Source: the human T2T-CHM13v2.0 reference genome, Homo sapiens. Taken from it: a DNA stretch of 64,000 nucleotides. A model generated the notes under the pieces. The model was not told the origin of the DNA, made no database searches, and worked only from the letters and a program-made list of their open reading frames with translations. Below are positions 3,026 through 61,245 of the stretch, piece after piece. Position 1 is the stretch's first letter. Each line of letters begins with the position of its first letter. The stretch covers positions 992,001 to 1,056,000 of the forward strand of contig CP068257.2 of the NCBI GenBank assembly GCA_009914755.4, read 5' to 3'. Both the position numbers and the translations under genes were made by a program.

Positions 3026-4465
<1,440 letters not shown>

Positions 4466-10419: not shown

Positions 10420-11858
<1,439 letters not shown>

Positions 11859-12480
11859 TCATGAATGGCGGTGGGCCTTGGGACAGCCCGCCCCACACCG
11901 GTAGGTTCCCAGGGCTTAGAGGCCTGCGGCCGGGGATGGTTTCGTGGAGGGGGGGAGGGCGTGGTGATGGTGGTCGTGGGGTCAGAGAGACGAAAGGAAG
12001 GGGGCGATGGGGAAGGGGTAACGGTGCCGCGTTTCGGGGGCTGGATCTCCGGACCTTTCCAGGAATCCCGCGGGAACTGGAAGCCACTCTCTGGGCACCC
12101 ACGCATCATCAGCAGGGAGAAACCGGCTTGGGACGGTGGAGGGGAGTGTGGAACTGAACCTCCAATGCAGTCTTGAGTGTTCCAGGCCCTCTCTCCGTGA
12201 AGAAGAGTTCCTGTTGGTGTCACCGTTACCGGGACAGTCTCACACGCCCAGGCTTGTGGCTCTCGTTCATTTCCGTGCAGGAGACCAGAGTGAGATCCCA
12301 GAGAGAAGATGCAACCCGGCGTGATGGCCTGATGATGGATTCCCGTGTGTGACAACATGGGGAGTCTGCAGTGTGGCCGGTTTGGAAACTGGGAAGGAGA
12401 GCGAAGGCACCGTGCCGGTCTTCCACCCTTCCCTGCATGTTTCCGGGTGCCCGCATAGCTCCGGCAGCAAACAGTCAGCA

Positions 12481-26900: not shown

Positions 26901-27317
26901 CAGTGCAGAGATATGTCACAAAGCCCCCATACACAGAGCCTAGACAAGAGTCCCATCACCTGGATGATCAGTGTAGAAATATGTCACAATGCCCCCATAG
27001 GCAGATCCAACACGAGAGTTACATCACCTGGGTGATCAGTGTAGAGATATGTCACAATGCCCCCATAGGCAGAGCCTAGACAAAAGTCCCATCACCTGGG
27101 TGATCAGTGTAGAGATATGTCACAATGCCCCCATAGGCAGAGCCTAGACAAAAGTCCCATCACCTGGGTGATCAGTGTAGAGATATGTCACAATGCCCCC
27201 ATAGGCAGAGCCTAGACAAAAGTCCCATCACCTGGGTGATCAGTGCAGAGATATGTCACAAAGCCCCTGTAGGCAGAGCCTAGACAAGAGTTACATCACT
27301 TTGTTGATCAGTTCAGA
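23944..27317. repeat. Beta-satellite array in the inverted orientation B (monomer reads agtgcagagatatgtcacaatgcccc...gttacatcacctgggtgatc on +), about 3.4 kb. Its right end is the reversed distal-flank series.
   Basis: The same 68-bp family as a reverse complement, e.g. 24140-24210 gttatcactgcagagatatgtcacaatgcccctgtaggcagagcctagagacaag...cacctgggtgatcagtgcagag. Confidence 0.9.
27053..27256. repeat. Three consecutive identical 68-bp monomers (a triplicated copy of distal-flank monomer D1, reversed).
   Basis: cacaatgcccccataggcagagcctagacaaaagtcccatcacctgggtgatcagtgtagagatatgt is repeated three times without a mismatch, while neighbouring monomers differ by 10-25%. Confidence 0.8.
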
Positions 27318-30833
<3,516 letters not shown>

Positions 30834-31460
30834 TCATGAATGGCGGTGAGCCCTGGGACAGCCCGCCCACCCCAGAATGGTCCCAGAGCTTCGAGGCCTG
30901 CTGCCGGGGGGTGGTGGTTTAGGTTGGGAGGGTGTGGTGATGGTGGTGGTGGGGACGGAGAGACAAAGAGGAAGGGGGCGAGGGGGAAGGGGTGAGGGGG
31001 GCGCGTTTCGCGGGCTGGCTCTCCAGACATCTCCAGGAACCCCTCGGGAACTGGAAGCCGCTCTCTAGGCTCCCAAGCATCTTCAGCAGGGAGAAACCGG
31101 CCTGGGATGGTGGAAGGGAGTGTGGAACTGAACCTCTGTGGGAGTCTTGAGTGTTCCAGGCCCTCCCTCTGCGAAGGAGGCAGTGCCTGTGGGTGTTGCC
31201 GTTGCTGGGACAGTCTCACACACGCAGGCGTGTGGCTCTCATTCATTTCCACGTAGGAGACCAGAGCGAGAGCCCAGAAAGAAGGTGCCTCCACGGCGTG
31301 ATGGCCTGACGATGGATTCCCATGTGCGGCAACATGGGGAGTCTGCAGTTTGGCCGATTTGGAAACGCAAAGAGAGCGAAGGCACCATGGCAGTCTTCCA
31401 CCTTTCCCTGAATGTTTCCGGGTGCCTGCAGTGCTCCGGGAGCAAACAGTCAGCAGGACA

Positions 31461-34400
31461 TATATCTCAAATGATCAACAAAGTGATGTAACTCTTGTCT
31501 AGGCTCTGCCTACAGGGGCTTTGTGACATATCTCTGCCCTTATCACCCACCTGATGGGACTTTGTGTAGGCTCTGCCTATGGGGACATTGTGACATATCT
31601 CTACACTGACCACCCAGGTGATGTAACTCTTGTGTTGGATCTACCTATCGGGGCATTGTGACATGTTTCTGCACTGATCACCCAGGTGATGTAATGCTTG
31701 ACTAGGCTCTGCCTACGGGGCATAGTGACATATCACTGCATTGATCACCGAGGTGATGTAACTCTTCTCCAGGCTCTGCCTATAGGGGGCCTTGTGACAT
31801 ATCTCTGCACTGATCATCTAGGTGATGTAACTCTTGCTTATGCTCTGCCTGCAGGGGCATTGTGAAATATCTCTGCACTGATCACCCAGGTGATGGGACT
31901 CTTCCCTAGGCTCTGCCTACTGTGGGCATTGTCACATATTTCTGCACTGATCACCCAGGTGACGGACTCTTGTCTTGGATATGCCTATTGGGACATTGTG
32001 ACAGATCTCTGCACTGATCACTCAGGTGATGTAACTATTGTCTAGGCTCTGCTGAATGGGGCCTTATCACATATCTCTGCACTGATCTCCCAGGTGATGT
32101 AACTCTTGTCTAGGCTCTGCTTACATGGGGTATTGTGACATAGCTCTGCACTGATCACCTAAGTGATATAACACCTGTGTAGGCTCTGCCTACAGGGGCA
32201 TTTTGATATATTTCTGCACTGTTAACCGAGGTGATGTAACTCTTGTCTAGGCTGTGCCCACAGGGGGATTGAGACATATCTCTGCACTGATCCCAAGGTG
32301 ATCCAACTCTTGCCTGGTCTCTGCCTACTGGGGACATTGTGACTTATCTCTGCACTAATCTCCCAGGTGCTGTAACTTTAGTCTAGGCTCTGGATACACA
32401 GCATCGTGACATATCACTGCACTGATCACCCAGGAGATATAACACTTATCTAGGCTCTGCCTACAGGGGGCTACTGACATATCTCTTCACTGATCACCCA
32501 GGTGATATAACTCTTCTCTAGGATCTGCCTACATGGTTCTTTGTGACATATTCCTGCAATGATCACCCAGGTGATATACCACTTTTCAAGGCTCTGCCTA
32601 CAGGGGCATTGTGACATAACTCTGCACTGATCACCCAGGTGATGGGACTTTGTCTAGGCTCTGCCAACAGTGGCATTGTGACATATCTCTGCACTGATCA
32701 CCCAGGTGATGCAACTGTTGTAGAAGTTCTGCCTACAGGGGAATTGTGAGAGATCTCACCACTGATCACCCAAGTGATGTATCTATTGTCTAGGCTTTGC
32801 CTACAGGAGGCTTTGTGACATACCTTCACACTGATCACCCAGGTGATGTAACGCATCTAAGTTCTGCCTACAGGAGCTTTGTGACTTATCTCTGCACTGA
32901 TCACTTAGGTGATGTAACATTTTTATAAGCACTGCCTACAGGGAATTTTGACAAATCTCTGCACTGATCACCTAGGTGATGTAACTCTTGTCTACCCTCT
33001 GCTCAAAGGGGGCATTGTGAAATATCTCTGCACTGATCACCCACTGATTCAACTCTTGTCCAGGATCTGCCTACAGGGGGCATTGTGAAATATCTCTGCA
33101 CTGATCAACTAGGTGATGTAACTGTTTTCTAGGCTCTGCCTACAGGGACATTCTGACATATCTCTGCACTGATCACCCAGGTGATGCAACTTTTCTCTAT
33201 TCTCTGCCTACAGGGGGCATTGTGACATATCTCTGCACTGAACCCCGGGGTTATGTAACTCTTGTCTAGGCTCTGCCTATGGGGGCATTGTGACTTATCT
33301 CTGCACTGATCACCCAGGAGTTGTGACTCTTGTCTAAGCTCTGCCTAGAGGGACATTGGGACATATCTCTGCACTGATGTCTGAGGTGATGTAAAACTTG
33401 TCTAGGCTTTGCCTACAGTGGGATTTATGACATATCACTGCACTGATCACCGAGATGATGTAACTCTTGTATAGGCTGCGCCGACAGGGAGCACTGAGAC
33501 ATATGCCTGCACTGATCACGAAGGTGATGCATCTCTTGTCTGGGATCTGCTTACAGGGGCACTGTGACATATCTCTGCCCTGATCACCCAGGTGATGTAA
33601 CTCTTGTTTAATCTCTGCCTACTGGAGACATTGTGACATATCTCCGCACTAATCACCCAGGTGATGTCACTTTTATCAAGGATATGGCTACAGGGACACT
33701 GTGACATGTCACTGCACTGATCACACAGCTGATGTAACTCTTGCCTAGGCTCTGGATACAGGGGGCTTGTGACACATGTCTGTACTGATCAACCAAGTGA
33801 TGAAACTCTTCTCTAGGCTCTGCCTACGGGGGCTTTGTGACACATCTCTGCACTGATCACTCTGGGGAAGAAACTCTTGTCTACACTCTGCTTAGAGGAG
33901 GCTTTATGACTTATAACTGCACTGATAACCTAGGTGATGTAACACTTGTCTAGGCTCTGCCTACACGGGAATTCACACATATCTCTGCACTGATAACCCA
34001 GGTGATGTAACTCTGGTCTAGGTTCTGCTTACAGGGGTTATTGTGACATATCTATGCACTGATCACCTAAGTGGTGTAACACTTGTGTAGGCTCTGCCTA
34101 CAGGGGCATTTTGACATATCCCTGCACTGTTAACCGAGGTGATGTAACTCTTGTCTAGGTTGTGCCCACAGGGGGATTGAGACATATCTCTGCACTGATC
34201 CCGAGGTGATCCAACTTTTGCCTGGTCTCTGCCTACTGGGGACATTGTGACATATCTCTGCACTGATCTCCCAGGTGAGGTATGTTTAGTCTAGACTCCG
34301 GCTACACGGCATTGTGACATATCACTGCACTGATCACCCAGGTCATATAACTCTTGTATAGGCTCTGAAGACAGGGGGCTTGTGACATATCTATCTCTGC

Positions 34401-37400: not shown

Positions 37401-39427
37401 ACTGATCATCAAGGTGATGGGGCTTTTGTCCAGGCTCTGCCTAAGGGGGCATTGTGACATATTTCTGCACTGATCACCCAGGAGATTTGACTCTTGTCTA
37501 AGCTCTGCCTAGAGGGACATTGGGACACATCTCTACACTGATCGCTGAGATGATGTAAAACTTTTCTAGGCTTTGCCTACAGTGGGATTTATGACATATG
37601 TCTGCACTCATTACCCAGGTGATGTAACTCTTGTCTAGGCTCTGCTTACAGGGGGTATTGTGAGATATCTCTGCACTGATCACCCAGATGATGTAACTCT
37701 TGTCTAGGCCCTGCCTACAGGAGCATTTTAACAAATCACTGCACTGATCACCGAGAAGATGTAACTCTTGTATAGGCTTCGCCGAAAGGTGGCATTGAGA
37801 CATATCTCTGCACTGATCACGAGGTGATGCAAGACTTGTCTGGATCTCGTTACACGGGACATTGTGACATGTCTCTGCCCTGATCACCCAGGTGATGTAA
37901 CTCTTGTCTAGGCTCGGCCTACAGGGGCTTTGTGACATATTTCTGCACTGATCACCCAGGTGATGTAACTCTTGTTTTGGCTCTGTCTACAGAGTCTTTG
38001 TGACATATCTCTGCACTGATCCCCCAGGTGATGTAACATTTATCTAGCCTCTGCCTACAGGGGCGTTTTGAGATAGCTCTGCACAGATCACCTAGGTTTT
38101 GTAACTCTTGTCCACTCTCTGCCTACAGGGGGCATTGTGAAATATTTCTGCACTGATCACCCAGGTGATGGGACTCTTCTCTATACTCTGCCTAGAGGGG
38201 GATTTCTGACATATCTCTGCTCTGATCTCCCAGGTGATGGAAGTCTTGTCTAGGCTCTGTATATGGGGGCATTATGTCAAATATCTGCACTGATCACCAG
38301 GTGATGTAACTCTTGTCTAGGCTCTGTCTACAGGGATTTTTGTGACATATCACTGCACTTTTCACCAAGGTGATGTAAGCCTTGTATGGGATTTGCGTAT
38401 AGAAAACTTTCTGACATATCTATGCACTGATCTCTGAGGTGATGCAACTCTTCTCTAGGCACGGCCTACAGGGGACGTTGGTGTATCTCTCTGCACTGAA
38501 CACCCAGGTGATGGGCTCTTGTCTTAGATCTGACTACATGGTCATTGTGACACACCTCTGAACTGATCAACCAAGTGATGAAACTCTTCTAGGCTCTGCC
38601 TACAGGAGCTTTGTGACACATCTCTGCACTGATCACACTGTTGAGGGAACTCTTGTCTACACTCTGCCTACAGGAGGCTTTATGACTTATACCTGCACTG
38701 ATAACCGAGGTGATGTAACACTTGTCTAGATTCTGCCTACATGGGAATTCTTACATATCTCCGCACTGATCACCCGGGTGATGGAACTCCTGTCTATGTT
38801 CAGCCTACAGGAGGGTTTTGACATATCTCTGCACTGATCACCCAGGTGATGTAACCCTTGTATAAGCTCTGCCTGCAGGCGCATTGTGACAGACCTCTCC
38901 ACTGCTCAACCAGGTGATATAACACGTTTCTGGGCTTTGCCTACAGGGGGCTTTGTGATATACATTTCCACTGATCAAACAGGTGATGTAAAGCTTGTCA
39001 AGGTTCTGCTTACAGGGGTTTTGTGACATATCTCTGCACTGATCACCACAGGGAGGAAACACTTCTCTACACTCTGCCTACAGGAGGCTTTACGACTTAC
39101 CCCTCCACTGATCACTAGGTGATGTAACACTTGTCTAGGCTCTGTCTTTACCGGAATTTTCACATATCTCTACACTGATCACCTAAGTGATGTAACCCTT
39201 GTCTAGGTTCAGCCTACTGGAGATTTCTGACATACCTATGCACTGATCACCGAGGTGATGTAAATCATTTCCATGCTTTTTGTACAGGGGACATTGTGAA
39301 ATATCTCTGCACTGATCACCCAAATGATGCAAATCTTCTCTAGACTCCACAGGGAGGGGGAATTGTGACATATTTCTGAAATGATCATCCAGGAGATGTA
39401 AGTATTCTCCAGGCTTTGACTAAAGAG
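31461..39427. repeat. Beta-satellite array, orientation A, about 8.0 kb.
   Basis: 68-bp periodicity. Distal-flank signature at 31540-31900; proximal-flank series P1-P17 at 38280-39427. Confidence 0.9.
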
Positions 39428-40082
39428 CGTCAGAAGGTGTTGGGAGAGTCTCAGCCAGAATCTCACAGACGGACAAGGGCAGAGAGAGGCCAGCAGGATC
39501 CCTTGCATGTCAGCCGCTAGAGGTCTGCGTTCTGCCGCCAGGCGCTCCATTGTGGCAGCTGGGAAGCTGCAGGGACACGGGCGGGCCGGCGATGGTGGCG
39601 CGGAGGCACAGAGGAGGCGAGCTGCCAGAGGGGTGTCAGGGCTGGATGCTGCGCGGGCCCGGTGTTTCGCGGGACGGGGGTCTCCACCCAGCCCAGGGGA
39701 GGACGCATTTACCGGAGATGGGGGTTGGGGGTGGGGACGGGGTGGTCAGGCGTGGGTGGGGTGGTAGAAAGGCATGAGAGCTTTGCCCGGTTTTCTCCCA
39801 CAGCCCAGGCGGCTGCCGGCAAACCCGTGTGTGCCCAGTAGGTGGCCCACCTGCTGGTATCTGGGCCGGCTCTGGGATCCCCGGGATGCCCAGGAAAGAA
39901 TGGCAGTTCTGCGCTGTGTGGAGTCTCTCACCGGGCCTAGACGTAGAAGGCAGGAATCCCATGCCTGTCAGCCCGGTGGACGGGGTGGGGGGAAGACATG
40001 CCCATCCATAGCCAGCCAAGTATTCCCCGCGAAAGAGAGGCCACCGCCCTCCCCCGACCCTACCCCGTCCCACCCTTGCGTC

Positions 40083-41490
<1,408 letters not shown>

Positions 41491-42140
41491 CCTGCAGGCA
41501 GGCAGGCTCCACCCCTTCATGAATGGCGGTGAGCCCTAGGACAGCCCGCCCCACCCCGGAAGTGTCCCAGGGCATCGAGGCCTGCGGTTGGGGGTTGGTG
41601 GGTTGGGGGGGGACGGCGTGGTGATGGTGGTTGTGTGGCCGGAGAGACGAAGAGGAAGGGGGCGAGGGGGAAGGGGTGAGGGGCGCGCGTTTCGGTGACT
41701 GGCTCTCCGGACCTCTCCAGGAATCCCGCGGGAACTGGAAGCCGCTCTCTGGGTTCCCACTCATCTTCAGCAGGGAGAAACCGGCCTGGGAGTGTGGAGG
41801 TGAGTGTGGAACTGAACCTCCATGTGAGTCTTGAGAGTTCCAGGACCTCTCTGCGTGAAGGAGGCAGTGCCTGTGAATGTCGCCACTGCTGGGACAGTCT
41901 CACACGCATAGGGGTGTGGCTCTCGTTCATTTCCACGTAGGAGACCAGAGCGAGACCCCAGAGAGAAGATGCCTCCCCGGCGTGATGGTCTGACAATGGA
42001 TTCCCGTGTGCGGCAACATGGGGAGTCTGCAGTGTGGCCGGTTTGGAAACTGGCAAGGAGAGCGAAGGCACCATGGGTGTCTTCACCCCTTTCCTGCATG
42101 TTTCCGGGTGCCCTCAGAGCTCCAGGAGCAAACAGCCAGC

Positions 42141-45100
42141 ATGACACATCTCTGAACTGATCAACAAAGTGATGGAACACTTGTCTAGGCTCTGCCTACA
42201 GGGGCTTTGTGACATATCTCTGCACTGATCACCCAGGTGATGGGACTTTTGTCTAAGCTCTGCCTATGGGACATTGCGACATATCTCTACACTGATCACC
42301 CAGGTGATGTAACTCTTGTCTAGGCTCCACCTTCAGGGGTTTTGTGACGTATCTTTGCACTGATCACCCAGGTGACGTAACATTTATCTCAGCTCCGCCT
42401 ACAGGGGGTTTTGACATAGCTCTGCACAGATCACCTAGTTTATGTAACCCTTGTCCAGTCTCTTCCTACAGGGGGCATTGTGAAATATCTCTGCACTGAT
42501 CACCCAGGTGATGGGACTCTTCTATATACTCTGCCTAGAAGGGGATTTGTGACATATCTCTGCACTGGTTACCCAGGTGATGGAAGTCTTGTCTAGGCTC
42601 TGTCTTTGGGGGCATTGTGTCAAATTTCTGAACTGATCACCCAGGTGATGGAATCTTGTCTTTGATCTGACTACATGGAGATGGTGACACTTCTCTGAAC
42701 TGATCAACCAAGTGACGAAACTCTTGTCTAGGCTCTGCCTATAGGGGCTCTGTGACACATCTCTGCACTGATCACCCAGGTGATGCAACTCTTCTCTATG
42801 TTCTGCCTACAGGGGTCATTGTGATATATCCCTACACTGATTACCCAGGTGATGTAACTCTTTTCTAGGTTCTGCCTACAGAGGGCTTTGTGACAACCCT
42901 CTGCACGGATCACCTGGGTTATGTAACTCTTGTCTAGGCTCTTCCTATGGGGGCAGTGTGACTTATCTCTGCACTGATTACCCAGGAGATGTGACTCTTG
43001 TCTAAGCTCTGCCTAGAGGCACATTGGGACATATCTCTGCACTGATCGCTGAGGTGATGTAAAAATTGTCTAGGCTTTGCCTATAGTGGGATTTATGACA
43101 TATCTCTGCACTGATCACCCAGGTGATGTAACTCTTGTCAAGGCTCTGCTTACAGGGGATATTGTGAGATATCTCTGCAATGATCACCCAGGTGAAGTAA
43201 CTCTTGTCTAGGCTCTGCTTACAGGGGATATTGTGAGATGTCACAGCACTGGTCACCCAGGTGATGTAACTCTTGTCTAGGCTCTGCCTACAGGGGCGTT
43301 TTAACATATCACTGCACTGATCATGGAGATGATGTAACTCTTGTATAGGCTTTGCCGACTGGGGGCAATGAGACATATCTCGGCACTGATCACCGAGGTG
43401 ATGCAACTCTTGTCTGGGATCTGCTTACAGGGGGCATTGTGACATATATCTGCCCTGATCACCCAGGTGATGTAACCCTTCTCTATGCTCTTCCTACTAG
43501 AGACACTGTGACATATCTCCGCACTGATCACCCAGGTGATGTAACTTTTGTCAAGGATATGGCTACAGGGACATTGTGACATGTCACTGCACTGATCACA
43601 CAGCTGATGTAACTCTTCTCCAGGCTCTGGCTACAGGGGGCTTGTGACACACCTCTGCAATGATCACCCAGGTGATGTCACCCTTGTCTAGGCTCTGCCA
43701 AAAGGGGGCATTATGACATAATTCTGCACTGATCACCCAGGTGATGGGACTCGTCTCTAGGCTCTGCCTACAGGGGCATTGTGACATATCTCTGCAGTGA
43801 TCACGCAGGTGATGTAACTCTTGTCTATATCTGCCTACTGGCGGCATTGTGGCATATTTCTGCACTGATCAACCAGGTGATGGACTCTTGTCTTGGATGT
43901 GCTTATGGGGGCATAGTGACATATCTCTGCACTGATCACTCATGTGATGTAACGCTTGTCTAAGCTGTGCCTAAAGGGGAATTCTGACAGATATCTCCAC
44001 TGATGACCCAGGTGATGTATCAATTTTCTGGGATCTGTCTAGAGGGGACTTTGTGACATATCTTTGCACTGGTCACCCAGGAGATGTAACTCTTGTCTAG
44101 GCTCGGCCTACAGGGGCTTTGTGACATATTTCTGTACTGATCACCCAGGTGATGTAACACTTGTCTTGGCTCCACTTACTGGGGGTATTGTGATATAACC
44201 CTTCTCTAGGATCTGCCTGCAGAGTTCTTTGTGACATATCCCTGCAATGATCACCCAGGTGATATACCACTTGTCATGGCTCTGCCTACAGGGGCATTGC
44301 GATATATCTCTGCCCTGATCACCTAGGTCATGTAACTCTTGTCTACGCTCTGCCTACAGTGGCATTGTGACATATCTCTACACTGATCATCCAGGTGATG
44401 TAACTCTTCTCTAGGATCTGCCTACAGGGTGCTTTGTGACACATCCCTGCAATGATCACCCAGGGGATGTACCACTCGTCAAGGCTCTGCCTACAGCGAC
44501 ATTGGGATGTGTCTCTGCACTGATCACCTAGGTCATGTAAATCTTGTCTAGGCTCTTCCTACTGTGGCATTGTGACATATCTCTGCAATGATCATCCAAG
44601 TGATGTAACTGTTGTCTAGTTTCTGCCTAAAGGGTCTTTGTGACATATCTCTGCACTGATCGTCCAGGTGATGGGGCTTTTGTCTAGGCTCTGCCTAAGG
44701 GGGCATTATGACATATTTCTGCACTGATAACCAGGTGACGGACTCTTGTCTTGGATCTGCCGATGGGGGCATTGTGACATATCTCTGCACTGATCACCCA
44801 GGTAATGTAACTGTTGTAGAAGTTCTGCCTACAGTGGAATTGTGAGAGATCTCGCCACTGATCACCCAAGTGATGTAACTATTGTCTAGGCTTTGCCTAC
44901 AGGGGGCTTTGTGACATACTTTTGCACTGATCACCCAGGTGACGTAACTCATCTAAGTTCTGCCTACAGGAGCTTTGTGACATATCTCTGCACTGATCGC
45001 TTAGGTGATGTAACACTTTTATAAGCATTGCCAACAGGGAATTTTGACAAATGTCTGCACTGATCACCTAGGTGATGTAACTCTTGTCTACCCTCTGCCC

Positions 45101-48100
45101 AAAGGGAGCATTGTGAAATATCTCTGCACTGATCACCCAGGAGATTCAACCCTTGTCTAGGATCTGCCTACAGGGGGTATTGTGAAATATCTCTGCACTG
45201 ATCAACTAGGTGATGTAACTCTTGTCGACTCTCTGCTTACAGGGGCGTTTTCACATATCCCTGAACTGATGACAAAGGTGATGTAAGTTTTGCCTAGGCT
45301 TTGCCTACAGGGAACATAGTGACATATCTCTGCACTTATCACCCAGGTGATGCAACTCTTCTCTATGCTCTGCCTACAGGAGATATTGTGACATGTCTCT
45401 CCACTGATCACCCAGGTGATGCAACTCTTCTCTATACTCTGCCTACTGGAGACATTGTGACATATCTCTGCACTGATCACTCAGGTGATGTAACAATTTT
45501 CTAGTCTCTGCCTACAGAGGGCGTTGGGACATTATTCTGCACGGACCATCCGGATTATATAACTCTTGTTTAGGCTCTGCCAATGGGGGCATTGTGACTT
45601 ATCTCTGCCCTGATCACACAGGAGATGTGACTGTTTTCTAAGCTTTGCCTAGAGGAACATTGGGACATATCCCTGCACTGATCGCTGAGGTGATGTAAAA
45701 GTTGTCTAGGCTTTGCCTACAGTGGGATTTATGACATATCTCTGCACTGATCACCCAGGTGATGTAACTCTTGTATAGGCTCTGCTTACAGGGGGTATTG
45801 TGAGATATCTCTGCACTGATCACCCAGGTGATGTAACTCTTGTCTAGGCTCTGCCTACAGGGGCATTGTGACATATCTCTGCAGTGATCACGCCCGTGAT
45901 GTAACTCTTGTCTATATCTGCCTACTGGCGGCATTGTGGCATATTTCTGCACTGATCACCCAGGTGATGGACTCTTGTCTTGGATCTGACTATGGGGGTA
46001 TAGTGAAATATCTCTGCACTGATTACTCATGTGATGTAACGCTTGTCTAAGCTGCGCCTAAAGGGGTTAATTGTGACAGATATCGCCACTGATCACCCAG
46101 GTGATGTAAGAATTTTCTGGGATGTGTCTATATTGGGCTTTGTGACATATCTTTGCACTGATCACCCAGGAGATGTAACTCTTTTCTAGGCTCCGCCTAC
46201 AGGGGCTTTGTGACATATTTCTGCACTGATCACCCAGGTGATGTAGCTTGTTTAGGCTCTGCCTACAGGGGCTTTGTGACATATCACTGCACTGATCACC
46301 CAGGTGATATAACTCTTGTCTAGGCTCCACCTACAGGGCGTATTGTGATGTATCTCTGCGCTGATCACCCAGGTGATGTAACATTTATCTAGGCCCTGCC
46401 TACAGGGGCATTTTGACATAGCTCTGCACAGATCAACTAGGTTATGTAACTCTTGTCCACTCTCTGCCTACAGGGGGCATTGTGAATTATCTCTGCACTG
46501 ATCATCCAGGTGATGGGACTCTTCTCTATACTCTGCCTAGAGGGGGAGTTGTGACATATCTCTGCACTGATCACCCAGGAGATGGAAGTCTTGTCTAGGC
46601 TCTGTCTATTGGGTCATTGTATCAAATATCTACACTGATCACCCAGGTGATGTAACTCTTGTGTTGGATCTGCCTATGGGGGCATTGTGACATATTTCTG
46701 CACTGATCAGCCAGGTGATGGGGCCCTTGTCTAGGCTCTGTTTACGGGGGCTTTGTGACATATCTCTGCACTGATCACCCAGGTGATGTAACGATTGACT
46801 AGGCTCTACCTATGGTGCATAGTGACATATCATTGTATTGATCGCCGAGGTGATGTAACTCTTATCCAGGCTCTGCCTATATGGGGCCTTGTGACATATA
46901 TCTGCACTGATCTTCTAGGTGATGTAACTCTTGCTTATTCTCTGCCTGCAGGGGCATTGTGGAATATCTCTGCACTGATCACCCAGGTGATGGGACTCTT
47001 CTCTATACTCTGCCTAGAGGGGGATTTGTGACATATCTCTGTACTGATCAACCAGGTGATTGAAGTCTTGTCTAGGCTCTGTGTATGTGGGCATTGGGTC
47101 ATATATCTGCACTGATCACCCAGGTGATGTAACTCTTTTCTACGCTCTGTCTAGAGTGATTTTTGTGACATATCACTGCACTCATCACCTAGGTGATGTA
47201 AGCCTCGTATGGGCTTTGCCTACAGAAGGCTTTGTGACATATCTATGCACTGATCTCTGAGGTGATGCAACTCATGTCTAGGCACTGCCTACAGGGGACA
47301 TTGGTACATATCTCTGCACTGATCACCCAGGTGATGGACTCTTGTCTTAGATCTGCCTACAAGGACATGGTGACACGTCTGTGAACTGATCAACCAAGTG
47401 ATGAAACTCTTGTCTAGGCTCTGCCTACGGTGGCTTTGTGACACATCTCTGCACTGATCACCCTGGAGAGGAAACTCTTGTCTACACTCTGCCTACAGGA
47501 GGTTTTATGACTTATACCTGCACTGATAACCTAGGGGATGTAACACTTGTCTAGGCTCTGTCTACACGGGAATTCTCACATATCTCTGCACTGATCACCC
47601 AGGTGATGTAACTCTGGTCTAGGTTCTGCTTACAGGGGATATTGTCACATATCTCTGCACTGATCACCTTAGTGATGTAACTCTTGTGTAGGCTCTGCCT
47701 ACAGGGGAATTTTGACATATCCCTGCACTGTTTAACCGAGGTGATGTAACTCTTGTCTAGGCTGTGCCCACAGGGGCATTGAGACAAATCTCTGAATTGA
47801 TCCCTAGGTGATCCAACTCTTGCCTGGTCTCTGCCTACTGGGGACAATGTGACATATCTCTGCACTGATCTACCAGGTGCTGTAACTTTAGTATAGGCTA
47901 CAGCTACATAGCATTGAGTCATAACACTGCACTGATCACCCAGGTGATGTAACTCATGTCTAGGCTCTGCCTACAGGTGGCTTGTGACATATCTCTGCAC
48001 TAATCACCCAGGTGATATAACTCTTCTCTAGGATCTGCCTACAGGGTGCTTTGTGACATATCCCTGCAATGATCATTCAGGTGATATACCACTTCTCAAG

Positions 48101-51100
48101 GCTCTGCCTACAGGGGCATTGCGATGTATCTCTGCCCTGATCGCCTAGGTCATGTAACTGTTGTCTATGATCTGCCTACAGTGGCATTGTGACATATCTC
48201 TGCACAGATCACCCAGGTGTTGTAAATCTTTTCTAGGATCTCCTACAGGGTGCTTTGTGACACATCGCTGCAATGATCACCCAGGTGATTTACCTCTTGT
48301 CAAGTCTCTGCCTACAGGGACATTGCGATGTATTTCTGCACTGATCACCTAGGTCATGTAACTCTTGTCTAGGCTCTGCCTACAGTGGCATTGTGACATA
48401 TCTCTTCACTGATCACCCAGGAGATGTGACTCTTGTCTAAGCTCTGCCTAGAGGGACATTGGGACATATCTCTGCACTGATCGCTGAGGTGGTGTAAAAG
48501 TTGTTTAGGCTTTGCCTACAGTGGGATTTATGACATATCTCTGCACTGATCACCCAGGTGATGTAACTCTTATCTAGGCTCTGCTTACAGGGGGCATCGT
48601 GAGATATCTCTGCACTGATCACGCAGGTACTGTAACTCTTGTCTAGGCTCTGCTACAGGGGCATTTTAATATATCACTGCACTGATCACTGAGATGATGC
48701 AACTACTCTCTGAGATCTGCTTACAGGGCGCATTGTGACATATCTCTGCACTGATCACCCAGGTGATATAACTGTTGTATAAGCTCTGCCTATAGGGGAA
48801 TTGTGAGAGATATCGCCACTGATCACTCAATTGATGTAACTATTGTCTTGGCTTTGCCTAAAGGGGGCTTTGTGACATACCTTTGTACTGATCACCCAGG
48901 TGATGTAAGTCATCTAATTTCTGCCTACAGGAGCTTTGTGACATATCTCAGCACAGATCTCTTAGGTGATGTAACACTTTTTAAGCACTTCCTACAGGGA
49001 ATTATTACAAATCTCTGCACTGATCACCTAGGTGATGTAACTATTTTCTAGGATCTGCCTACAGGGTGCTTTGTGACATAACCCTGCACTGATCACCCAG
49101 GTGATATACCTTTTGTCAAGGCTCTGCCTACAGGGACATTGCGATGTATCTCTGCATTGATCACCTAGGTCATGTAACTCTTGTCTAGGCTCTGCCTACA
49201 GTGGCATTGTGACATAACTCTGCACTGCTCGTCCAGGTGATGGGGCTTTTGTCTAGGCTCTTCCTAAGGGGGCATTGTGACATGTTTCTGCACTGATCAC
49301 CCAGGTGACGGACTCTTGTCTTGGATCTGCCAATGGGGGCATTGTGATATAACTCTGCACTGTTCACCCAGGTGATGTAACGGATTTATAAGCTCTGCCT
49401 ACAGGGGAATTGGGAGAGATCTCGCCACTGATAACCCAAATGATGTATCTATTGTCTAGCCTTTGCCTACAGGGGGCTTTGTGACATACCTTTGCACTGA
49501 TCACCCAGGTGATGTAACTCTTGTCTAGGCTCTGCCTATAGAGGGCTTGTGACATATCTCCCCAGTGATCACGCAGGTGATGTAACTCTTGTCTATATCT
49601 GCCTACTGTCGGCATTGTAGCATATTTCTGCAATGATCACCGAGGTGATGGACTCTTGTATTGGATCTGCCTATGGGGGTATAGTGACATATCTCAGCAC
49701 TGATCACTCATGTGATGTAACGTTTGTTTAAGCTGCTACTGAAGAGGAATTGTGACAGATAACTCCACTGATCACCCAGGTGAAGTAACAATTTTCTGGG
49801 ATTTGTTTAGAGGGGGCTTTGTGACATATATTTGCACTGATCACACAGGAGACGTAACTCTTGTCTAGGCTCGGCCTACAGGTGCTTTGTGACATATTTC
49901 TGCACTGATCACCCAGGTGATGTAACACTTGTTTAGGCTCTGCCTACAGGGACTTTGTGACGTATCTCTGCACTGATCACCCAGGTGATGTAACTCTTGT
50001 CTAGGCTCCACTTACAGGGGCTATTGTGACGTATATCTGCACTGATCACCCAGTTGATGTAACGTTTATCTAGGCTCTGCCAACAGGGGAGTTTTGACAT
50101 AGCTCTGCACAGATCACCTAGGTTATGTAACTCTTGTCCACTCTCTGCCTACAGGGGGCATTGTGAAATATATCTGCACTGATCACCTAGGTGATGGGAC
50201 TCTTCTTTATACTCTGCCTAGAGGGGGATTTGTGACATATCTCTGCAATGATCACCCGGGTGATGGGACTCTTCTGTATACTCTGCCTGGAGGGGGATTT
50301 GTGACATATCTCTGCACTGATGACCCAGGTGATGGAAGACTTGTCTAGGCTCTGTCTATGGGGGCATTGTGTCAAATATCTGCACTGATCACCCAGGTGA
50401 TGTAACTCTTGTCTAGGCTCTTTCTACAGGGATTTTTGTGACATATCACTGCACTGGTCACCTAGGTGATGTAAGCCTTGTATGGGCTTTGCGTACAGAA
50501 GGCTTTGTGATATATCTATGCACTGATCTCTGAGATGATGCAACTCTTGTCTAGGCACTGCCAACAGGGGACATTGGTACATATCTCTGCACTGATCACC
50601 CAGGTGATGGACTCTTGTCTTAGATCTGCCTACATGGATATTGTGACACACCTCTGAACTGATTAACCAAGTGATGAACCTCTTGTCTATGCTCTGCCTA
50701 CAGGGGCTTTGTGATACATCTCTGCACTGATTACTCTGGGGAGGAAACTCTTGTCTACGCTCTGCCTACAGGAGTCTTTATGACTTATACCTGCACTGAT
50801 AACCTATGTGATGTAACATTTGTCTAGGTTCTGCCTACACGGGAATTCTCAAAAATGTCTGCACTGGTCACCCAGGTGATGTAACTCCTGTCTAGGTTCA
50901 GCCTACAGAAGCGTTTTGACATATCTCTGCACTGATCACCCAGGTGATGTAACACTTGTCTAAGCTCTGCCTACAGGGGCATTGTGACAGATCTCTCCAC
51001 TGCTCACCCAGGTGATATAATATTTGTCTGGGTTTTGCCTACAGGGGGCTTTGGGATATACATTTCCACTGATCAAACAGGTGATGTAACCCTTGTCAAG

Positions 51101-51526
51101 GTTCTGCTTACAGGGGCTTTGAGACATATCTCTGCACTGATCACCCCTGAGAGGAAACACTTGTCTACACTCTGCCTACAGAAGGTTTTATGACTTATCC
51201 CTGCACTGATCACTATGTGATGTAACACTTGTCTAGGCTCTGTCAACACGGGAATTTTCACATATCTCTACACTGATCACCTAAGTGATGTAACCCTTGT
51301 CTAGGTTCAGCCTACTGGGGATTTCTGACATACTTATGCACTGGTCACTGAGGTGATGTAAATCATTTCCAGGCTTTTTGTACAGGGGACATTGTGACAT
51401 ATCTCTGCACTGATCACACAAATGATGCAAATCTTCTCTTGGCTCTGCAGGGATGGGGTATTGTGACATATTTCTGAACAGATCATCCAGGAGATGTAAC
51501 TATTCTCCAGGCTTTGACTAAAGAGC
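42141..51526. repeat. Beta-satellite array, orientation A, about 9.4 kb (a double-length interval). Contains a clean unit-less P0/D1 hybrid junction near 46636.
   Basis: 68-bp periodicity. Distal-flank monomers at 42240-42500; proximal-flank series at 50370-51526. Confidence 0.9.
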
Positions 51527-52222
51527 GTCGGAAGGTGTTGGGAGAGCCTCAGCTGGAAATTCACAGAGGGACAAGGGCACAGAGAGGCCAGCGGGCTCCC
51601 TTGCACGTCAGCCGGGGTGCGCAATGAGCGCAGGTCTAGCCAGGAGGATGGCAAGGAGAGCTAGAGGTCTGCGTTCCGCTGGCAGGCGCTCCATGGTGGC
51701 AACTGGGAGGCTGCCGGGGCATGGGCGGGTTGGCGACGGTGGCGCGGAGGCGCAGAAGAGGCGACCCACCAGAGGGCTGTCAGGCCTGGATGCTGCGCGG
51801 GCCCGGAGTTTCACGGGACAGGGGTCTCCTCCCAGCCAAGGGGAGGACACATTTTCCGGGGGTGGGGTTTGGGGTGGGGGTGTGGTCAAGCGGGGGTGGG
51901 GTGGTGGAAAGACATGAGAGCTCTGCACGGGCTGCTCCCACAGCCCAGGTGGCTGCCCGCAAACCCGCACCTGTGCAGTAGGCGGCCCACATGCTGGTAC
52001 CTGGTCAGGCTCTGGAATCCCCAGGATGCCCAGGAAAGAATGGCAGTTCTCTGCTGTGTGGAGCCTCTCACCGGGCCTAGACATAGAAGGCAGGAATCCT
52101 AGGTCAGTCAGCCCGGTGGAGGGGGCGGGGAGAGGGCACGCCCCTCCATAGCCATCCAGGTGTTCCCGGCGAAATAGAGGCCACCGCCCTGCCCCGACCC
52201 GATACCTTCCCAACCCTGCGTC

Positions 52223-53891
<1,669 letters not shown>

Positions 53892-54265
53892 TCAGCAGGG
53901 AGAAACCGGCCTGGGAGGGTGGAGGAGAGTGTGGAACTGAACCTCCGTGGGAGTCTTGAGTGTTCCAGGCCCTCTCTCCGTGAAGGAGGCCGTGCCTGTT
54001 GGTGTCTCCGTTGCCAGGACAGTCTCACACACGCAGGCGTGTGGCTCTCGTTCATTTCCACGTAGGAAACCAGAGCGAGATCCCAGAGAGAAGATGCCTC
54101 CCCGGCGTGATGACCTGATGATGGATTCCCGTGTGCGGCAACATGGGTAGTCTGCAGTGTGGCCAGTGTGGAAACTGGCAAGGAGAGCGAAGGCACCATG
54201 CCGGTCTTCCCCCCTGCCCTGCATGTTTCCGGGTACCCGTAGAGCTCCGGGAGCAAAGAGTCAGC

Positions 54266-57200
54266 ATGACACATCTCTGAACTGATCAACAAAGTGATGT
54301 AACACTTGTCTAGGCTCTGCCTACATCGGCTTTGTGACATATCTCTGCACTGATCACCCAGGTAATGGGACTCTTGTCTAGGCTGTGTGTATGGGGGCTT
54401 TGTGACATATCTCTGCACTGATCACCCAGGTAATGGGGCTCTTGTCTAGGCTGTGTGTATGGGGGCTTTGTGACATATCTCTGCACTGATCACCCAGGTG
54501 ATGTAACGCTTGACTAGGCTCTGCCTACGGGGCATAGTGACATATCACTGCATTGATCACTGAGGTGATGTAACTCTTGTCCAGGCTCTGCCTATAGGGG
54601 GCCTTGTGACATATCTCTGGACTGATCATCTAGGTGATGTAACTGTTGCTTATGCTCTGCCTGCAGGGACATTGTGAAATATCTCTGCACTGATCCCCTA
54701 GGTGATGGGACACCTCTCTAGGCTCTGCCTACTGGGGGCATTGTCACATATTTTTGCACTGATCACCCAGGTGATGGACTCTTGTCTTGGATTTGCCTAG
54801 GGGGTCATTGTGACATATCACTGCACTGATCACCCAGGTGATGTAACCCTGGTTTAAGCTCTGCCTAAAGGGGCATTGTGACAGATCTCTGCACTGATCA
54901 CTCAGGTGATGTAACTATTGCCTAGGCTCTGCTTAAAGAGGCCTTGTCACTTATCTCTACACTGATCACCCAGGTGATGTAACTATTGTCTAGGATCTGC
55001 TTTCAGGGGGTATTGTGACATATCTCTGCATGGATCACCTAAGTGTTGTAACACTTGTGTAGGCTCTGCCTACAGGGGCATTTTGACATATCTCTGCACT
55101 GTTAAAAGAGGTGATGTAACTCTTGTCTAGGCTGTGCACATAGGGGGATTGAGATATATCTCTGCACTGTTCCCGAGGTGATCCAACTCTTGCCTGGTCT
55201 CTGCCTACTGGGAAAATTGTGACATATATCTGCACTGATCTCCCAGGTGCTGTAAATTTAGTCCAGGCTCTGGCTACATGGCATGGTGACATATCACTGC
55301 ACTGATCACCCTGCTGATATAACTCTTCTCTAGGATCTGCCTACAGGGTACTTTGTGACATATCCCTGCAATGGTCACCCAGGTGATATACCACTTGTCA
55401 AGGCTCTGCCTACAGGGACATTGCGATGTATCTCTGCACTGACAACCTAGGTCATATAACTCTTGTCTAGGATCTGCCTACAGTGGCATTGTGACATATC
55501 TCTGCACTGATCATCCAAGTGATGTAACATTTGTCTAGGATCTGCCTAAAGGGACTTTGTGACATAACTCTCCACTGATTATCCAGGTGATTGGGCTTTT
55601 GTCAAGGCTCTGTCTAAGGGGGCCTTGTGACATATTTCTGCACTGATCACACACGTGACGGACTCTTGTCTTGGATCTGCCTGTGGGGGCATTGTGACAA
55701 ATCTCTGCACTGATCACTCAGGTGTTGTAACTGTTGTATAACCTCTGCCTACAGGGGAATTGTGAGAGATCTCGCCACTTATCAACCAAGTGATGTAACG
55801 ATAGTCTAGGCTTTCCCTACAGGGTGCTTTGTGACATACCTTTGTACTGATCATCCAGCTGATGTAACTCATCTAAGTTCTGCCTCCAGGAGCTTTGTGA
55901 CATATCTCTGCACTGATCACTTATGCGATGTAACAGTTTTATAAGCACTGCCTACAGGGAATTTTGACAAATCTCTGCACTGATCACCTAGGTGATGTAA
56001 CTCTTGTCTACCCACTGTGCAAAGGGGTCATTGTGAAATATCTCTGCACTGAACACCCACGTGATTCAACTCTTGTTTAGGATCTGCCTACAGGGGGTAT
56101 TGTGAAATATATCTGCACTGATCAACTAGGTGATGTAACTCTTGTCTAGGCTCTGCCCTCAGGGGCATTTTCACATATCACTGAACTGATGACAAAGGTG
56201 ATGTAACACTTGCCTAGGCTTTGCCTACAGGGGCATTGTGACATACCTCTGCACTGATCACTCAGGTGATGCAACTCTTCTCTATGTTCTGCCTACAGGG
56301 GGCATTGTGACATATCTCTGCACTGATCACCCAGGTGATGTAACTCTTCTCTAGTCTCTGCCTACAGAAGGCGTTGTGACATCACTCTGCACGGATCACC
56401 CGTGTTATGTAACTCTTGTCTAGGCTCTGCCTACCGGGGCATTGTGACTTATCTCTGCACTGATCACCCAGGAGATGTGACTCTTTTCTAAGCTATGCCT
56501 AGAGGGACATTGGGACATATCTCTTCACTGATCGCTGACGTGATGTAAAACTTGTCTTGGATTTGCCTACAGTGGGATTTATGACATATCTCTGCACTGA
56601 TCACCCAGGTGATGTAACTCTTGTCTATGCTCTGCTTACAGGGCGTATTGTGAGATATCTCTGCACTGATCACCCAGTTTATGTAACTCTTCTCTAGGCT
56701 CTGCCTATAGGGGCATTTTCACATATCACTGCACTGATCAACGAGATTATGTAACTTTTGTATAGGCTTTGCTGACAGGGGGCATTGAGACATATCTCTG
56801 CACTGATCACTGAGGTGATGCAACTCTTCTCTGGGATCTGCTTACAGGGGGCATTGTGACATATCTCTTCCTTGATCATCCAGGTGATGTAACTCTTGTC
56901 TAGGCTCAGCCTACTCGAGGAATTGTGAGATATCTCCGCACTGATCACCCAGGTGATGTCACTTTTTTCAAGGATATGGCTACAGGGACATTGTGACGTG
57001 TCACTGCACTGATCACACAGCTGATGTAACACTTGTCTAGGCTCTGGCTACAGAGGGCTTGTGACATATCTCTGCACTGATAACCCAGGTAATGTAACAT
57101 TTATCCAGCCTCTGCCTACAGGGGCGTTTTGACATAGCTCTGCACAGATCACCTAGGTTATGTAACTCCTGTCCACTCTCTGCCTACAGGGGTCATTGCA

Positions 57201-58490
57201 AAATATCTCTGCTCTGATCACCCAGGTGATGGGACTCTTCTCTATACTCTGCCTAGAGGGGGATTTGCGACATGTATCTGCACTGATCACCCAGGTGATG
57301 GAAGTCTTGTCTAGGGTCTGTCTATGGGGACATTGTGTCAAATATCTGCACTGATCACCCAGGTGATGTAACTCTTGTCTAGGCTCTGTCTACCGGGATT
57401 TTTGTGACATATCACTGCACTGATCACCTAGGTGATGTAAGTCTTGTATTGTCTTTGCCTACAGAGTGCTTTGTGATATATCTATGCACTGATCTCTGAG
57501 GTGATGCAGCTCTTGTCTAGGCACTGCCTACAGGGGACATTGGCACATCTCTCTGCACTGATCACCCAGGTGATGGACTCTTGTCTTAGATCTGCCTACA
57601 TGGTCTTTGTGACACATCTGTGAACTGATCAACCCAGTGATGAAACTCTTGTCTAGGCTCTGCCTACAGGGGCTTTGTGACACATCTCTGCACTAATTGC
57701 CCTGGAGAGGGAACTCTTGTCTAGGCTCTGCTTACAGGAGGCTTTATGACTTTTACCTGCACTGATTACCTAGGTGATGTAACACTTGTGTAGACTCTGC
57801 CTACACTGGAATTCTCACATATCTCTGCACTGATCACCCGGGTGATGTAACTCCTTTCTAGGTTCAGCCTACAGGAGTGTTTTGATATATCTCTGCACTG
57901 ATCACCCAGGTGATGTAACACTTGTCTAAGCTCTGCCTACATGGGCATTGTGACAGATCTCTCCACTGCTCACCCAGGTGATGTAACAATTCTCTGGGAT
58001 TTGCCTACAAGGGGCTTTGGGATATACATTTCCACTGATCAAACAGGTGATGTAACCCTTGTCAAGGTTCTGCTTACAGGGGCTTTGAGACATATCTCTG
58101 CACTGATCACCCCTGAGAGGAAACACTTGTCTACACTCTGCCTACAGAAGGCTTTACGACTTATCCCTGCACTGATCACTAGGTGATGTAACACTTGTCT
58201 AGGCTCTGTCTACACGGGAATTTTCACATATGTCTACACTGATCACCTAAGTGATGTAATCCTTGTCTAGGTTTAGCCTACTGGGGATTTCTGACATACC
58301 TATGCACTGATCACCGAGGTGATGTAAATCATTTCCAGGCTTTTTGTACAGGGGACATTGTGATATATCTCTGCACTGATCACCCAAGTGATGCAAATCT
58401 TCTCTAGCCTCCGCAGGGAGGGGGCATTGTGACATATTTCTGAACTGACCATCCAGGAGATGTAACTATTCTCCCGGCTTTGACTAATGA
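54266..58490. repeat. Beta-satellite array, orientation A, about 4.2 kb (about 62 monomers). Starts with duplicated D1-like monomers (54340-54460) and ends with P1-P17.
   Basis: 68-bp periodicity; proximal-flank series 57340-58490. Confidence 0.9.
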
Positions 58491-59191
58491 GCGTTGGAAG
58501 GTGTTGGGAGAGCCTCAGTCGGAATTTCACGGACGGACAAGGGCACAGAGAGGCCAGCGGGCTCCCTTGCACGTCAGCCGGGGTGCGCAATGAGCGCAGG
58601 TCTAGCCAGGAGGCTGGCAAAGAGAGCTAGAGGTCTGCGTTCCGTTGCCAGGCGCTCCATGGTGGCAGCTGGGAGGCTACAGGGGCACGGGCGGGCTGGC
58701 GATGGTGACGCAGAGGCGCAGAGGAGGTGAGCTGCCGGAAGGGTGTCATGCCTGGATGCTGCGTGGACCCGATGTTTCACGGGACGGTGGTCTCCACCCA
58801 GGCCAGGGGAGGACGCATTTTCCGGGGGTGGGGGGTGGGGGTGGGAAGGGTGTTGTCAGGAGTGGGAGGGGTGTTGGAAAGGCAAGAGAGCTCTGCCCGG
58901 GCTGCTCCCAAAGCCCAGGTGGCTGCCCGCAAACCCGCGTGTGCGCAGAAGGTGGCCCAACTGCTGGTACCTGGGCCGGCTCTGGGATCCCTGGGTTGTC
59001 CACGAAAGAATGGCAGTTCTCCGCTGTGTGGAGCCTCTCATCAGGCCTACACCTAGAAGGCAGGACTCACAGCCCGGTCAGCCCGGTGGAGAGGGCAGTG
59101 GAACACACGCCCCTCCATAGCCAGCCAGGTGTTCCCCGCGAAAGAGAGGCCACCGCCATGCCCCGACACGACCCCATCCCAACCCCGCGTC

Positions 59192-61215
<2,024 letters not shown>

Positions 61216-61245
61216 TCAGAGCTCCAGGAGCAAACAGTCAGCATG

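What the first reader, a model, noticed from the sequence alone, without database searches (positions are those of the whole stretch)
46560..46760. Unit-less junction 2: a clean P0/D1 hybrid monomer, the footprint of unequal crossover that removed a whole D4Z4-like unit
At about 46636 the monomer that normally precedes P1 (...gggtcattgtatcaaatatctacact) is followed directly by D2, D3 and D4 (gatcacccaggtgatgtaactcttgtgttggatctgcctatgggggcattgtgacatatttctgcact / gatcagccaggtgatggggcccttgtctaggctctgtttacggggg... / ...gtaacgattgactaggctctacctatggtgcatagtgacatatcattgtatt). This is exactly what recombination between monomer P0 and monomer D1 would leave. Such an exchange deletes P1-P17, the 2.8-kb unit and D1, about 4.1 kb. 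The site lies near the midpoint of the double-length 9.4-kb beta-satellite interval between units 6 and 7, where a unit is expected by periodicity. It shows that the array loses DUX4-like units by intra-satellite exchange while keeping the higher-order repeat phase.
Basis: seen in the sequence. Interest (0 to 1): 0.5.

Follow-up and report, generated by a model that had tools for sequence, protein, structure and literature searches.

The report
Unit-skipping joint in beta-satellite/DUX4-like array
In a diverged array of 68-bp beta-satellite monomers interspersed with DUX4-like (D4Z4/LSau) units, the satellite that normally runs into a unit is joined directly to the satellite that normally follows one; this is a real but ordinary recombination scar, one of many in the array.

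Summary
The upstream 137 bp are 88-94% identical to P19-P18 elsewhere. The downstream 340 bp are 88-91% identical to six other D flanks, against 72-76% to what normally follows P18. The joint lies 48% of the way along the 9,367-bp interval.

- The "hybrid monomer" rests on one diagnostic base (A at 46632).
- The D series stops after five monomers. At 46977 the sequence returns to P19-P11, and at 47593 it switches to D11-D17, so there are three joints within 1 kb.
- The window holds at least 33 private joints, 11 of them in this interval. No strict higher-order phase exists to be "kept".

An out-of-register exchange between P18 and D2 that removed about 4.0 kb, including one unit, is the most economical reading (about 0.5). 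A short converted or inserted patch, or an intra-interval duplication, cannot be excluded.

This is a known array type (LSau/beta-satellite composite) and a known mechanism. Interest is low.

The parts
42159..51525 (+). Double-length beta-satellite interval (I5, 138 monomers) between two DUX4-like units (39426-42158 and 51526-54283)
   Evidence: Monomer HMM segmentation and gaps; unit boundaries by self-BLAST; TRF period 68
46160..46636 (+). Seven monomers of types P24..P18, the run that normally continues as P17..P1 into a unit
   Evidence: Best colinear hits are all P24-P18 runs in I2 (two places), I5 right flank, I4, I1, I6 and I7, at 0.86-0.92, z 3.9-6.4; per-monomer table
46569..46636 (+). 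Junction monomer. It has a P18 body, with P18-specific bases up to 46628. Its last diagnostic base, A at 46632, is of D2 type.
   Evidence: Comparison with 10 other P18 and 8 D2 copies; MAFFT alignment column 133
46629..46662 (+). Breakpoint window of the P18|D2b joint. P17 and D2b share their first 26 nt, so the window is 34 nt. It narrows to 46629-46631 if the A at 46632 was inherited from D2.
   Evidence: Type consensuses; BLAST alignments from the P side end at 46660-46662 and those from the D side start at 46633-46634
46637..46976 (+). Five monomers of types D2b, D3, D4, D5, D6, the series that normally follows a unit
   Evidence: 88-91% identity to six D flanks against 72-76% to P17-P13; block scan z 4.6-6.2; alignments
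46949..47005 (+). Breakpoint window of the second joint (D6|P19). D6 tail plus D7 head is identical in consensus to P20 tail plus P19 head over 57 nt.
   Evidence: Type consensuses; this joint occurs nowhere else in the window
46977..47592 (+). Nine monomers of types P19..P11, a second copy of the proximal-flank series
   Evidence: 0.88-0.92 identity to nine P19-P11 runs, z 5.6-6.8
47593..48138 (+). Monomers of types D11..D17, reached through a third joint (P11|D11 at 47592/47593). That joint also occurs at 33855-34128 in interval I4.
   Evidence: Block scan 0.84-0.90 to nine D11-D17 modules; junction block 0.934 (z 6.4) to I4 33855-34128

Best explanation
The window is a diverged LSau/beta-satellite composite array. 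Single ~2.77-kb DUX4-like (D4Z4-type) units are separated by blocks of 68-bp beta-satellite. The monomers next to a unit have recognisable position-specific types: P26..P1 before a unit and D1..D17 after it.

At 46636/46637 a homologous exchange joined the two flanks. It was in register at the 68-bp level but out of register at the level of the period. It occurred between a P18 monomer and a D2 monomer; the two types are 87% alike, and their following monomers P17 and D2b share their first 26 nt. The exchange left out P17-P1, one unit, D1 and D2, about 4.0 kb. That fused two neighbouring periods into the 9.4-kb interval.

The joint is old. The monomers on either side differ by 6-12% from all their counterparts. 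The same stretch was reworked by at least one more exchange: D6|P19 at 46949-47005, inside a 57-nt tract identical between the D6-D7 and P20-P19 consensuses. It also carries an older joint, P11|D11, that is shared with interval I4.

Shown: the joints, their register and the homology tracts at the breakpoints. Inferred: that the event was a deletion which removed a unit, and the order of the events.
For: - Flank identities on each side of the joint and block-scan z-scores.
- Column-by-column switch in the alignment.
- One D2-type base at the 3' end of the P18 monomer.
- D2 versus P18 consensus identity of 87%, the highest value in the D2 row. P17 and D2b heads are identical for 26 nt.
- The joint lies at 48% of the interval.
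- The right half has ordinary period order after the joint.
- The halves of I5 are each other's best match over only 10-16% of their length, at ~90% identity, the same as to any other interval. This argues against a recent intra-interval duplication.
- Five of seven D2b/D3-D6 runs directly follow a unit, and six of ten P19-P11 runs continue down to a unit (partial at 22583). The unit-less state is therefore the minority, derived-looking state.
- Other unit-skipping joints exist with different breakpoints: P13|D9 at 63635/6, and P7|three monomers|D2 at 17491-17697.
- Unequal exchange is demonstrably active in this array: a 548-bp tandem duplication at 96.5% identity with ~270 bp identical.
Against: - The D series lasts only five monomers. 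The sequence then resumes at P19, so P24-P11 is continuous apart from a 477-bp insert.
- Hybrid status of the junction monomer rests on one base.
- Private joints are frequent: 33 among 623 tested adjacencies, 11 of them in this interval. A joint near the midpoint is therefore not very improbable.
- Restoring the skipped segment gives periods of ~8.4 and ~7.8 kb, against 7.0-7.4 kb for the two complete periods.
- Interval I4 is long without any such joint.
- No allele with the unit could be examined.
Confidence: 0.5

Rival explanations
1. Short patch. The stretch 46160-47592 was a continuous P24-P11 run. A seven-monomer block (D2b-D6 plus a second P19-P18, 477 bp) was placed into it by gene conversion or a double exchange with a D flank. 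No unit was lost at 46636. The unit-less P-to-D transition of this interval would then be the older P11|D11 joint at 47592/47593.
For: Relative to the P flanks of I0, I1, I2, I4, I5-right, I6 and the internal P run of I7, the region is colinear except for a 476-477-bp offset. Both ends of the patch lie in tracts shared by donor and recipient types: 26-34 nt at the left and 57 nt at the right. I7 62954-64000 shows a P23-P13 run flowing into D9-D13 without any such patch.
Against: It needs a donor that already carried one of the two joints, and neither joint occurs anywhere else in the window. The best D-flank match is only 91%, so there is no recent donor in view. The two P18 copies are only 84% alike, so there was no recent local duplication.
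Confidence: 0.25
2. Intra-interval unequal exchange. P18 of one chromatid paired with D2 of the same interval on the sister or homologue. This duplicated the satellite interior (D2b...P18) and lengthened the interval without touching any unit. It gives the same P18|D2b joint.
For: The topology is identical to that of the deletion product. D-to-P joints, which would be the reciprocal kind of product, exist: D2|P23 at 42293/4 and D3|P24 near 5380. Satellite-only tandem duplication is documented in I2.
Against: The two halves of I5 have different module orders. They are each other's best match on only 696 of 4,478 bp and 461 of 4,889 bp, at ~90% identity, no closer than to other intervals. The joint is private to I5, so the halves should be closest relatives if it arose this way.
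Confidence: 0.15
3. Assembly artefact. A mis-join or collapse in a repetitive region created a chimeric junction.
For: Satellite arrays are error-prone in assemblies. No read data could be inspected.
Against: Copies in this array differ by 8-14%, which is easy for long reads to tell apart. Both sides of the joint carry private substitutions and match no other copy in the window above 94%. The joint is exactly in monomer register inside a short shared tract, as expected of homologous exchange.
Confidence: 0.04

Closest known systems
LSau/beta-satellite composite arrays of human-type genomes. These are the 'beta-composite arrays' of Altemose et al., bioRxiv 10.1101/2021.07.12.452052; the 'LSAU-BETA composite' of Hoyt et al., bioRxiv 10.1101/2021.07.12.451456; and the LSAU-BSAT regions with divergent, 5'-truncated D4Z4 copies in Butterfield et al., PMC10620044.
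   Same: The window has 68-bp beta-satellite blocks interspersed with single D4Z4-like units carrying DUX4-like homeoboxes. Units occur in both orientations, with an inversion. Within-array unit identity is ~86%, inside the 80-95% reported for such composites in centromere transition regions.
   Different: Nothing essential. The chromosome and species of the window could not be determined with the collections available. The papers read describe the arrays at the level of annotation, not at the level of monomer-type joints.
Unequal crossing-over or out-of-register homologous exchange in tandem repeats. This is the textbook model of satellite evolution (own knowledge: Smith 1976). D4Z4 array contraction at 4q35 is the disease-relevant analogue.
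   Same: The joint is in register at the monomer level. The breakpoint lies inside a short tract shared by the two partners. The flanks are colinear with two non-adjacent parts of the period. Young tandem duplications occur in the same array.
   Different: At 4q35 the exchange is between whole 3.3-kb units in a homogeneous array. Here the partners are 68-bp satellite monomers lying on either side of a unit in an old, diverged array, so the unit is lost as a passenger. Deletion as against conversion or duplication is inferred, not shown.
Gene-conversion patches in satellite or segmentally duplicated DNA
   Same: A short (340-477 bp) block of foreign type is bounded on both sides by sequence of the recipient series, with shared tracts at both ends.
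   Different: No close donor is present in the window; the best match is 91%. P19-P18 is repeated on both sides of the block, which simple conversion does not produce.

Membership tests
LSau/beta-satellite composite array | Tandem ~68-bp beta-satellite (Sau3A) monomers | tested here: met
   TRF period 68 over 42169-51520; 650 near-full-length monomer matches, each starting with GATC
LSau/beta-satellite composite array | Interspersed D4Z4/LSau-type units with DUX4-like double homeobox | tested here: met
   Units of 2.73-2.78 kb, 85.5-86.5% identical to each other. ORF 52962-53885 (minus strand) has two Pfam Homeodomain matches and aligns to human DUX4 residues 1-152, PDB 5z6z, E 8.7e-78.
LSau/beta-satellite composite array | Location on acrocentric short arms, the chromosome 1 pericentromere or similar | not testable with these tools
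   No eukaryotic genome collection was available
Unequal-crossover deletion joint | Joint in register with the repeat, with flanks colinear with two non-adjacent parts of the canonical period | tested here: met
   Monomer starts at 46569, 46637 and 46705; flank identities; block scans
Unequal-crossover deletion joint | Hybrid repeat unit at the breakpoint, with diagnostic bases switching from one parent type to the other | tested here: inconclusive
   There is only one D2-type base (A at 46632) after the last P18-type base (46628). The next 30 nt are shared by both parents.
Unequal-crossover deletion joint | Colinearity with the distal partner continues well beyond the joint | tested here: not met
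   The D series ends after five monomers. 46977-47592 is P19-P11, and D types resume only at D11.
Unequal-crossover deletion joint | Existence of the undeleted allele or of the reciprocal product | not testable with these tools
   There is no access to other haplotypes. No D2|P17 reciprocal joint occurs in the window.
Gene-conversion patch | A near-identical donor elsewhere | tested here: not met
   Best match of 46637-46976 in the window is 91% (I3). Donors outside the window were not testable.
Strict higher-order repeat (fixed period and phase) | Constant period and constant monomer order between units | tested here: not met
   Intervals are 49, 62, 68, 117, 138 and 148 monomers long. Interior order differs between intervals. 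There are 33 private joints.

The most novel reading that the evidence does not exclude
Unit loss in these composite arrays is recurrent and is steered by old paralogies among the flanking satellite monomers. Candidate pairs are P18~D2, P20-P19~D6-D7 and P13~D1. Repeated exchanges between the two flanks of a unit would then progressively strip DUX4-like units and turn a composite array into plain beta-satellite. The several unit-skipping joints in this one window would be snapshots of that decay: P18|D2b, P13|D9, P11|D11 (twice) and P7|...|D2.
Probability: 0.3. Interest if true: 0.3.

Novelty: new member of a known kind. Interest (0 to 1): 0.15.

Why it matters
This is a worked example of how copy number of DUX4-like units can change in the divergent LSau/beta-satellite arrays. 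The unit is lost as a passenger of exchange between flanking 68-bp monomers, not by unit-to-unit exchange as at 4q35. It adds detail to a known picture (composite arrays, unequal exchange in satellites). It opens no new question. Its practical use is as a set of monomer-type markers (P26-P1, D1-D17) and joint coordinates that could be scored across pangenome assemblies.

Tried and rejected
- Chance resemblance was rejected. The six best of 605 five-monomer blocks are the six D flanks, and there is a clear gap to the next hit.
- Recent local tandem duplication of a seven-monomer block was rejected. At offset 477 only P19 (96%) and P18 (84%) match.
- Recent duplication of the whole satellite interior is disfavoured. 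The halves are no closer to each other than to other intervals.
- A special relationship with the other internal D run in I2 ("junction 1") was rejected. Block identity is 0.885, lower than to I3 and to the I2 D flank. That joint has a different structure: P7, three interior monomers, then D2.
- A hidden structured RNA or other annotated element was not found. Rfam gave no match in the whole window at gathering thresholds.
- A strict higher-order repeat was looked for with TRF. TRF reported periods 68 and 137, plus one local 110-bp row at 44083-44282. Nothing longer was found up to its 500-bp limit.
- A literature search found the array type, but no monomer-level joint analysis in the four papers whose text I searched.
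- I did not use the large protein or contig collections. They hold no suitable genomic context for a primate satellite array and could not change the verdict.

Full report
What the window is. The sequence alternates between ~46-47% GC satellite and ~65% GC blocks. Self-BLAST with one GC-rich block finds copies at 2284-5047, 9686-12437, 39516-42075, 51484-54223 and 58450-61200. They are 85.5-86.1% identical to the query block. Rearranged and inverted pieces lie at 22.5-24.0 kb and 27.4-31.4 kb. A profile built from local monomers tiles the rest with 650 near-full-length 68-bp monomers, each starting with GATC. The non-satellite gaps it leaves are 2330-5107, 9725-12497, 22583-23952, 27310-31472, 39426-42158, 51526-54283 and 58498-61260. 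TRF reports period 68, unbroken from 44190 to 51520. One unit keeps an ORF on the minus strand (52962-53885). That ORF has two Pfam homeodomains and aligns to residues 1-152 of human DUX4 (PDB 5z6z, E 8.7e-78).

This is therefore the known LSau/beta-satellite composite. [quoted passage not shown] Hoyt et al. report 80-95% within-array identity for LSAU composites in centromere transition regions (bioRxiv 10.1101/2021.07.12.451456). Butterfield et al. describe divergent, mostly 5'-truncated D4Z4 copies in LSAU-BSAT regions (PMC10620044).

Position-specific monomer types. Monomers next to units are recognisable by position. Counting back from a unit, P21-P2 are the same types in all six proximal flanks. 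Counting on from a unit, D1-D10 and then D11-D17 recur in most distal flanks. Different types are 60-96% alike in consensus, mostly 70-90%, whereas copies of one type are 88-99% alike. The types can therefore be told apart.

The observation. Monomers 46160-46636 are P24..P18, and 46637-46976 are D2b, D3, D4, D5, D6. By global alignment, 46500-46636 is 88-94% identical to P19-P18 at eight other places. It is 76-84% identical to the D1-D2 monomers that normally precede D2b/D3. The stretch 46637-46976 is 88-91% identical to six D flanks and 72-76% to P17-P13, which is what follows P18 everywhere else. Among all 605 colinear five-monomer blocks in the window (mean identity 0.752, sd 0.027), the six best hits are exactly the six D flanks (0.874-0.918). 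The next hit is 0.824. The MAFFT alignment shows the switch column by column. The joint is in monomer register. It lies 4,478 bp into the 9,367-bp interval 42159-51525. The skipped segment measures 4,044 bp in a complete period (57353-61396).

The breakpoint. The junction monomer 46569-46636 carries P18-specific bases up to 46628 (GGAAGTC, TGTCTAT, TCAAATATCT). At 46632 it has A (TCTACACT), as in 7 of 8 D2 copies, where all 10 other P18 copies have G. The next 30 nt are common to both parents, because P17 and D2b share their first 26 nt. The first D2b-specific base is at 46663. The breakpoint window is thus 46629-46662. It narrows to 46629-46631 if the single A is taken as inherited. "Hybrid monomer" is a fair description, but it rests on one base.

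The D series ends after D6. The stretch 46977-47592 is P19-P11 (0.88-0.92 to nine other P19-P11 runs, z 5.6-6.8). The stretch 47593-48138 is D11-D17. There are therefore three joints in 1 kb.
- P18|D2b. This joint occurs nowhere else in the window.
- D6|P19. This joint is also unique to this site. It lies within 46949-47005, where D6 tail plus D7 head and P20 tail plus P19 head are identical in consensus over 57 nt.
- P11|D11 at 47592/47593. This joint is also present at 33855-34128 in interval I4 (0.934, z 6.4), so it is older than the other two.

Relative to every other P flank, 46160-47592 is a continuous P24-P11 run with a 476-477-bp (seven-monomer) insert. This explains the paired BLAST alignments with offsets differing by 476 bp.

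Context.
- D-to-P joints, which are interior deletions, occur at 42293/4 (D2|P23) and near 5380 (D3|P24).
- A formal count tested 623 adjacent monomer pairs. It finds 33 whose two sides are each recognisable in at least two other places while the joint itself occurs nowhere else. Eleven of these are in I5.
- Interval lengths are 49, 62, 68, 117, 138 and 148 monomers, and interior module order differs between intervals. There is no strict higher-order phase.
- One long interval (I4) has no D2-D6 run.
- Exchange is still active. An eight-monomer tandem duplication at 16054-17149 is 96.5% identical, with ~270 bp identical. Three D2 monomers in I3 are identical.

Mechanism and rivals. A P-to-D joint can arise in three ways.
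(i) Exchange between P18 of one period and D2 of the next, deleting ~4.0 kb with the unit.
(ii) Exchange between P18 and D2 of the same interval, duplicating the satellite interior.
(iii) Conversion or double exchange that places a short D block into a P run.

Against (ii): the halves of I5 differ in module order. They are each other's best match on only 696 of 4,478 bp and 461 of 4,889 bp, at ~90% identity, no closer than to other intervals.

Against (iii): it needs a donor already carrying one of the two private joints. The closest D flank in view is 91%.

For (i):
- The joint is near the midpoint of the interval.
- The right half has ordinary period order.
- Five of seven D2b/D3-D6 runs directly follow a unit, and six of ten P19-P11 runs continue down to a unit.
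- D2 and P18 are 87% alike, the highest value in the D2 row.
- Several other unit-skipping joints exist.

I rate (i) about 0.5, (iii) 0.25, (ii) 0.15 and artefact 0.04. All flanking monomers differ by 6-12% from their counterparts, so the event is old under any model. One conclusion holds whichever reading is right. The interval contains a transition from proximal-flank to distal-flank satellite without a unit somewhere within 46.6-47.6 kb, at P18|D2b or at P11|D11.

Verdict. The joint is real and statistically secure. The array type and the mechanism are both known. No other haplotype could be examined, so deletion remains inferred. Interest is low.

Noticed in passing
window 22550-31472: There is an inverted segment. 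A partial unit lies on the plus strand (22550-32 to 22832). Unit pieces lie on the minus strand (23947-22922, 27863-27370, 29168-27897). A 49-monomer beta-satellite block is inverted (23953-27309). A plus-strand unit part follows (29219-31410). This matches the many inversion breakpoints reported for beta-satellite arrays.
   Followed up: partly
window 16054-17149: A young eight-monomer (548-bp) tandem duplication of P20-P13 types. It is 96.5% identical overall, with about 270 bp identical, so it is far younger than the joint under study.
   Followed up: yes
window 27038-27241 (minus strand) and 54352-54487: Three identical copies of the D2 monomer sit next to an inverted unit. A 99% identical pair of D3 monomers sits next to another unit. 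Both are very recent single-monomer duplications in the distal flank.
   Followed up: partly
window 63635/63636: A clean P13|D9 joint. A P23-P13 run flows into D9-D13 without P12-P1, a unit or D1-D8. This is another unit-skipping joint with a different breakpoint.
   Followed up: partly
P14-P7 is followed by three interior-type monomers, and then by D2, D2b, D3-D17.
   Followed up: partly
window 42159-42769: The distal flank of the unit left of the interval is itself a mosaic: D1 D2 | P23 P21 P20 P19 P18 | P14 P13 | interior types. This amounts to three private joints within 0.6 kb.
   Followed up: partly
window 33787-34128: Interval I4 carries P13 P12 P11 | D11 D12..., the same joint as at 47592/47593. 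Here it is preceded by P23/P22 types, so this joint predates a duplication that spread it.
   Followed up: partly
window 44139-44249: The 68-bp phase breaks here (monomers of 51 and 59 bp). TRF splits the array at about 44180.
   Followed up: no
monomer types, whole window: Some position-specific types show old paralogies: D1~P13 96%, D9~P9 94%, P26~P9 94%, P11~P5 93%, P12~P6 90%, P25~P8 90%, D6~P20 90%. These hint at older satellite duplications (shifts of 6 and 17 monomers) beneath the present flanks.
   Followed up: partly
window 52962-53885 (minus strand): Among the three units checked (39426-61260), only this one keeps an ORF covering both DUX4 homeodomains, and it stops about 170 residues after the DUX4-type start (MALLTALDD...). 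The other two have only unrelated or fragmentary ORFs. The copies look like pseudogenes.
   Followed up: partly
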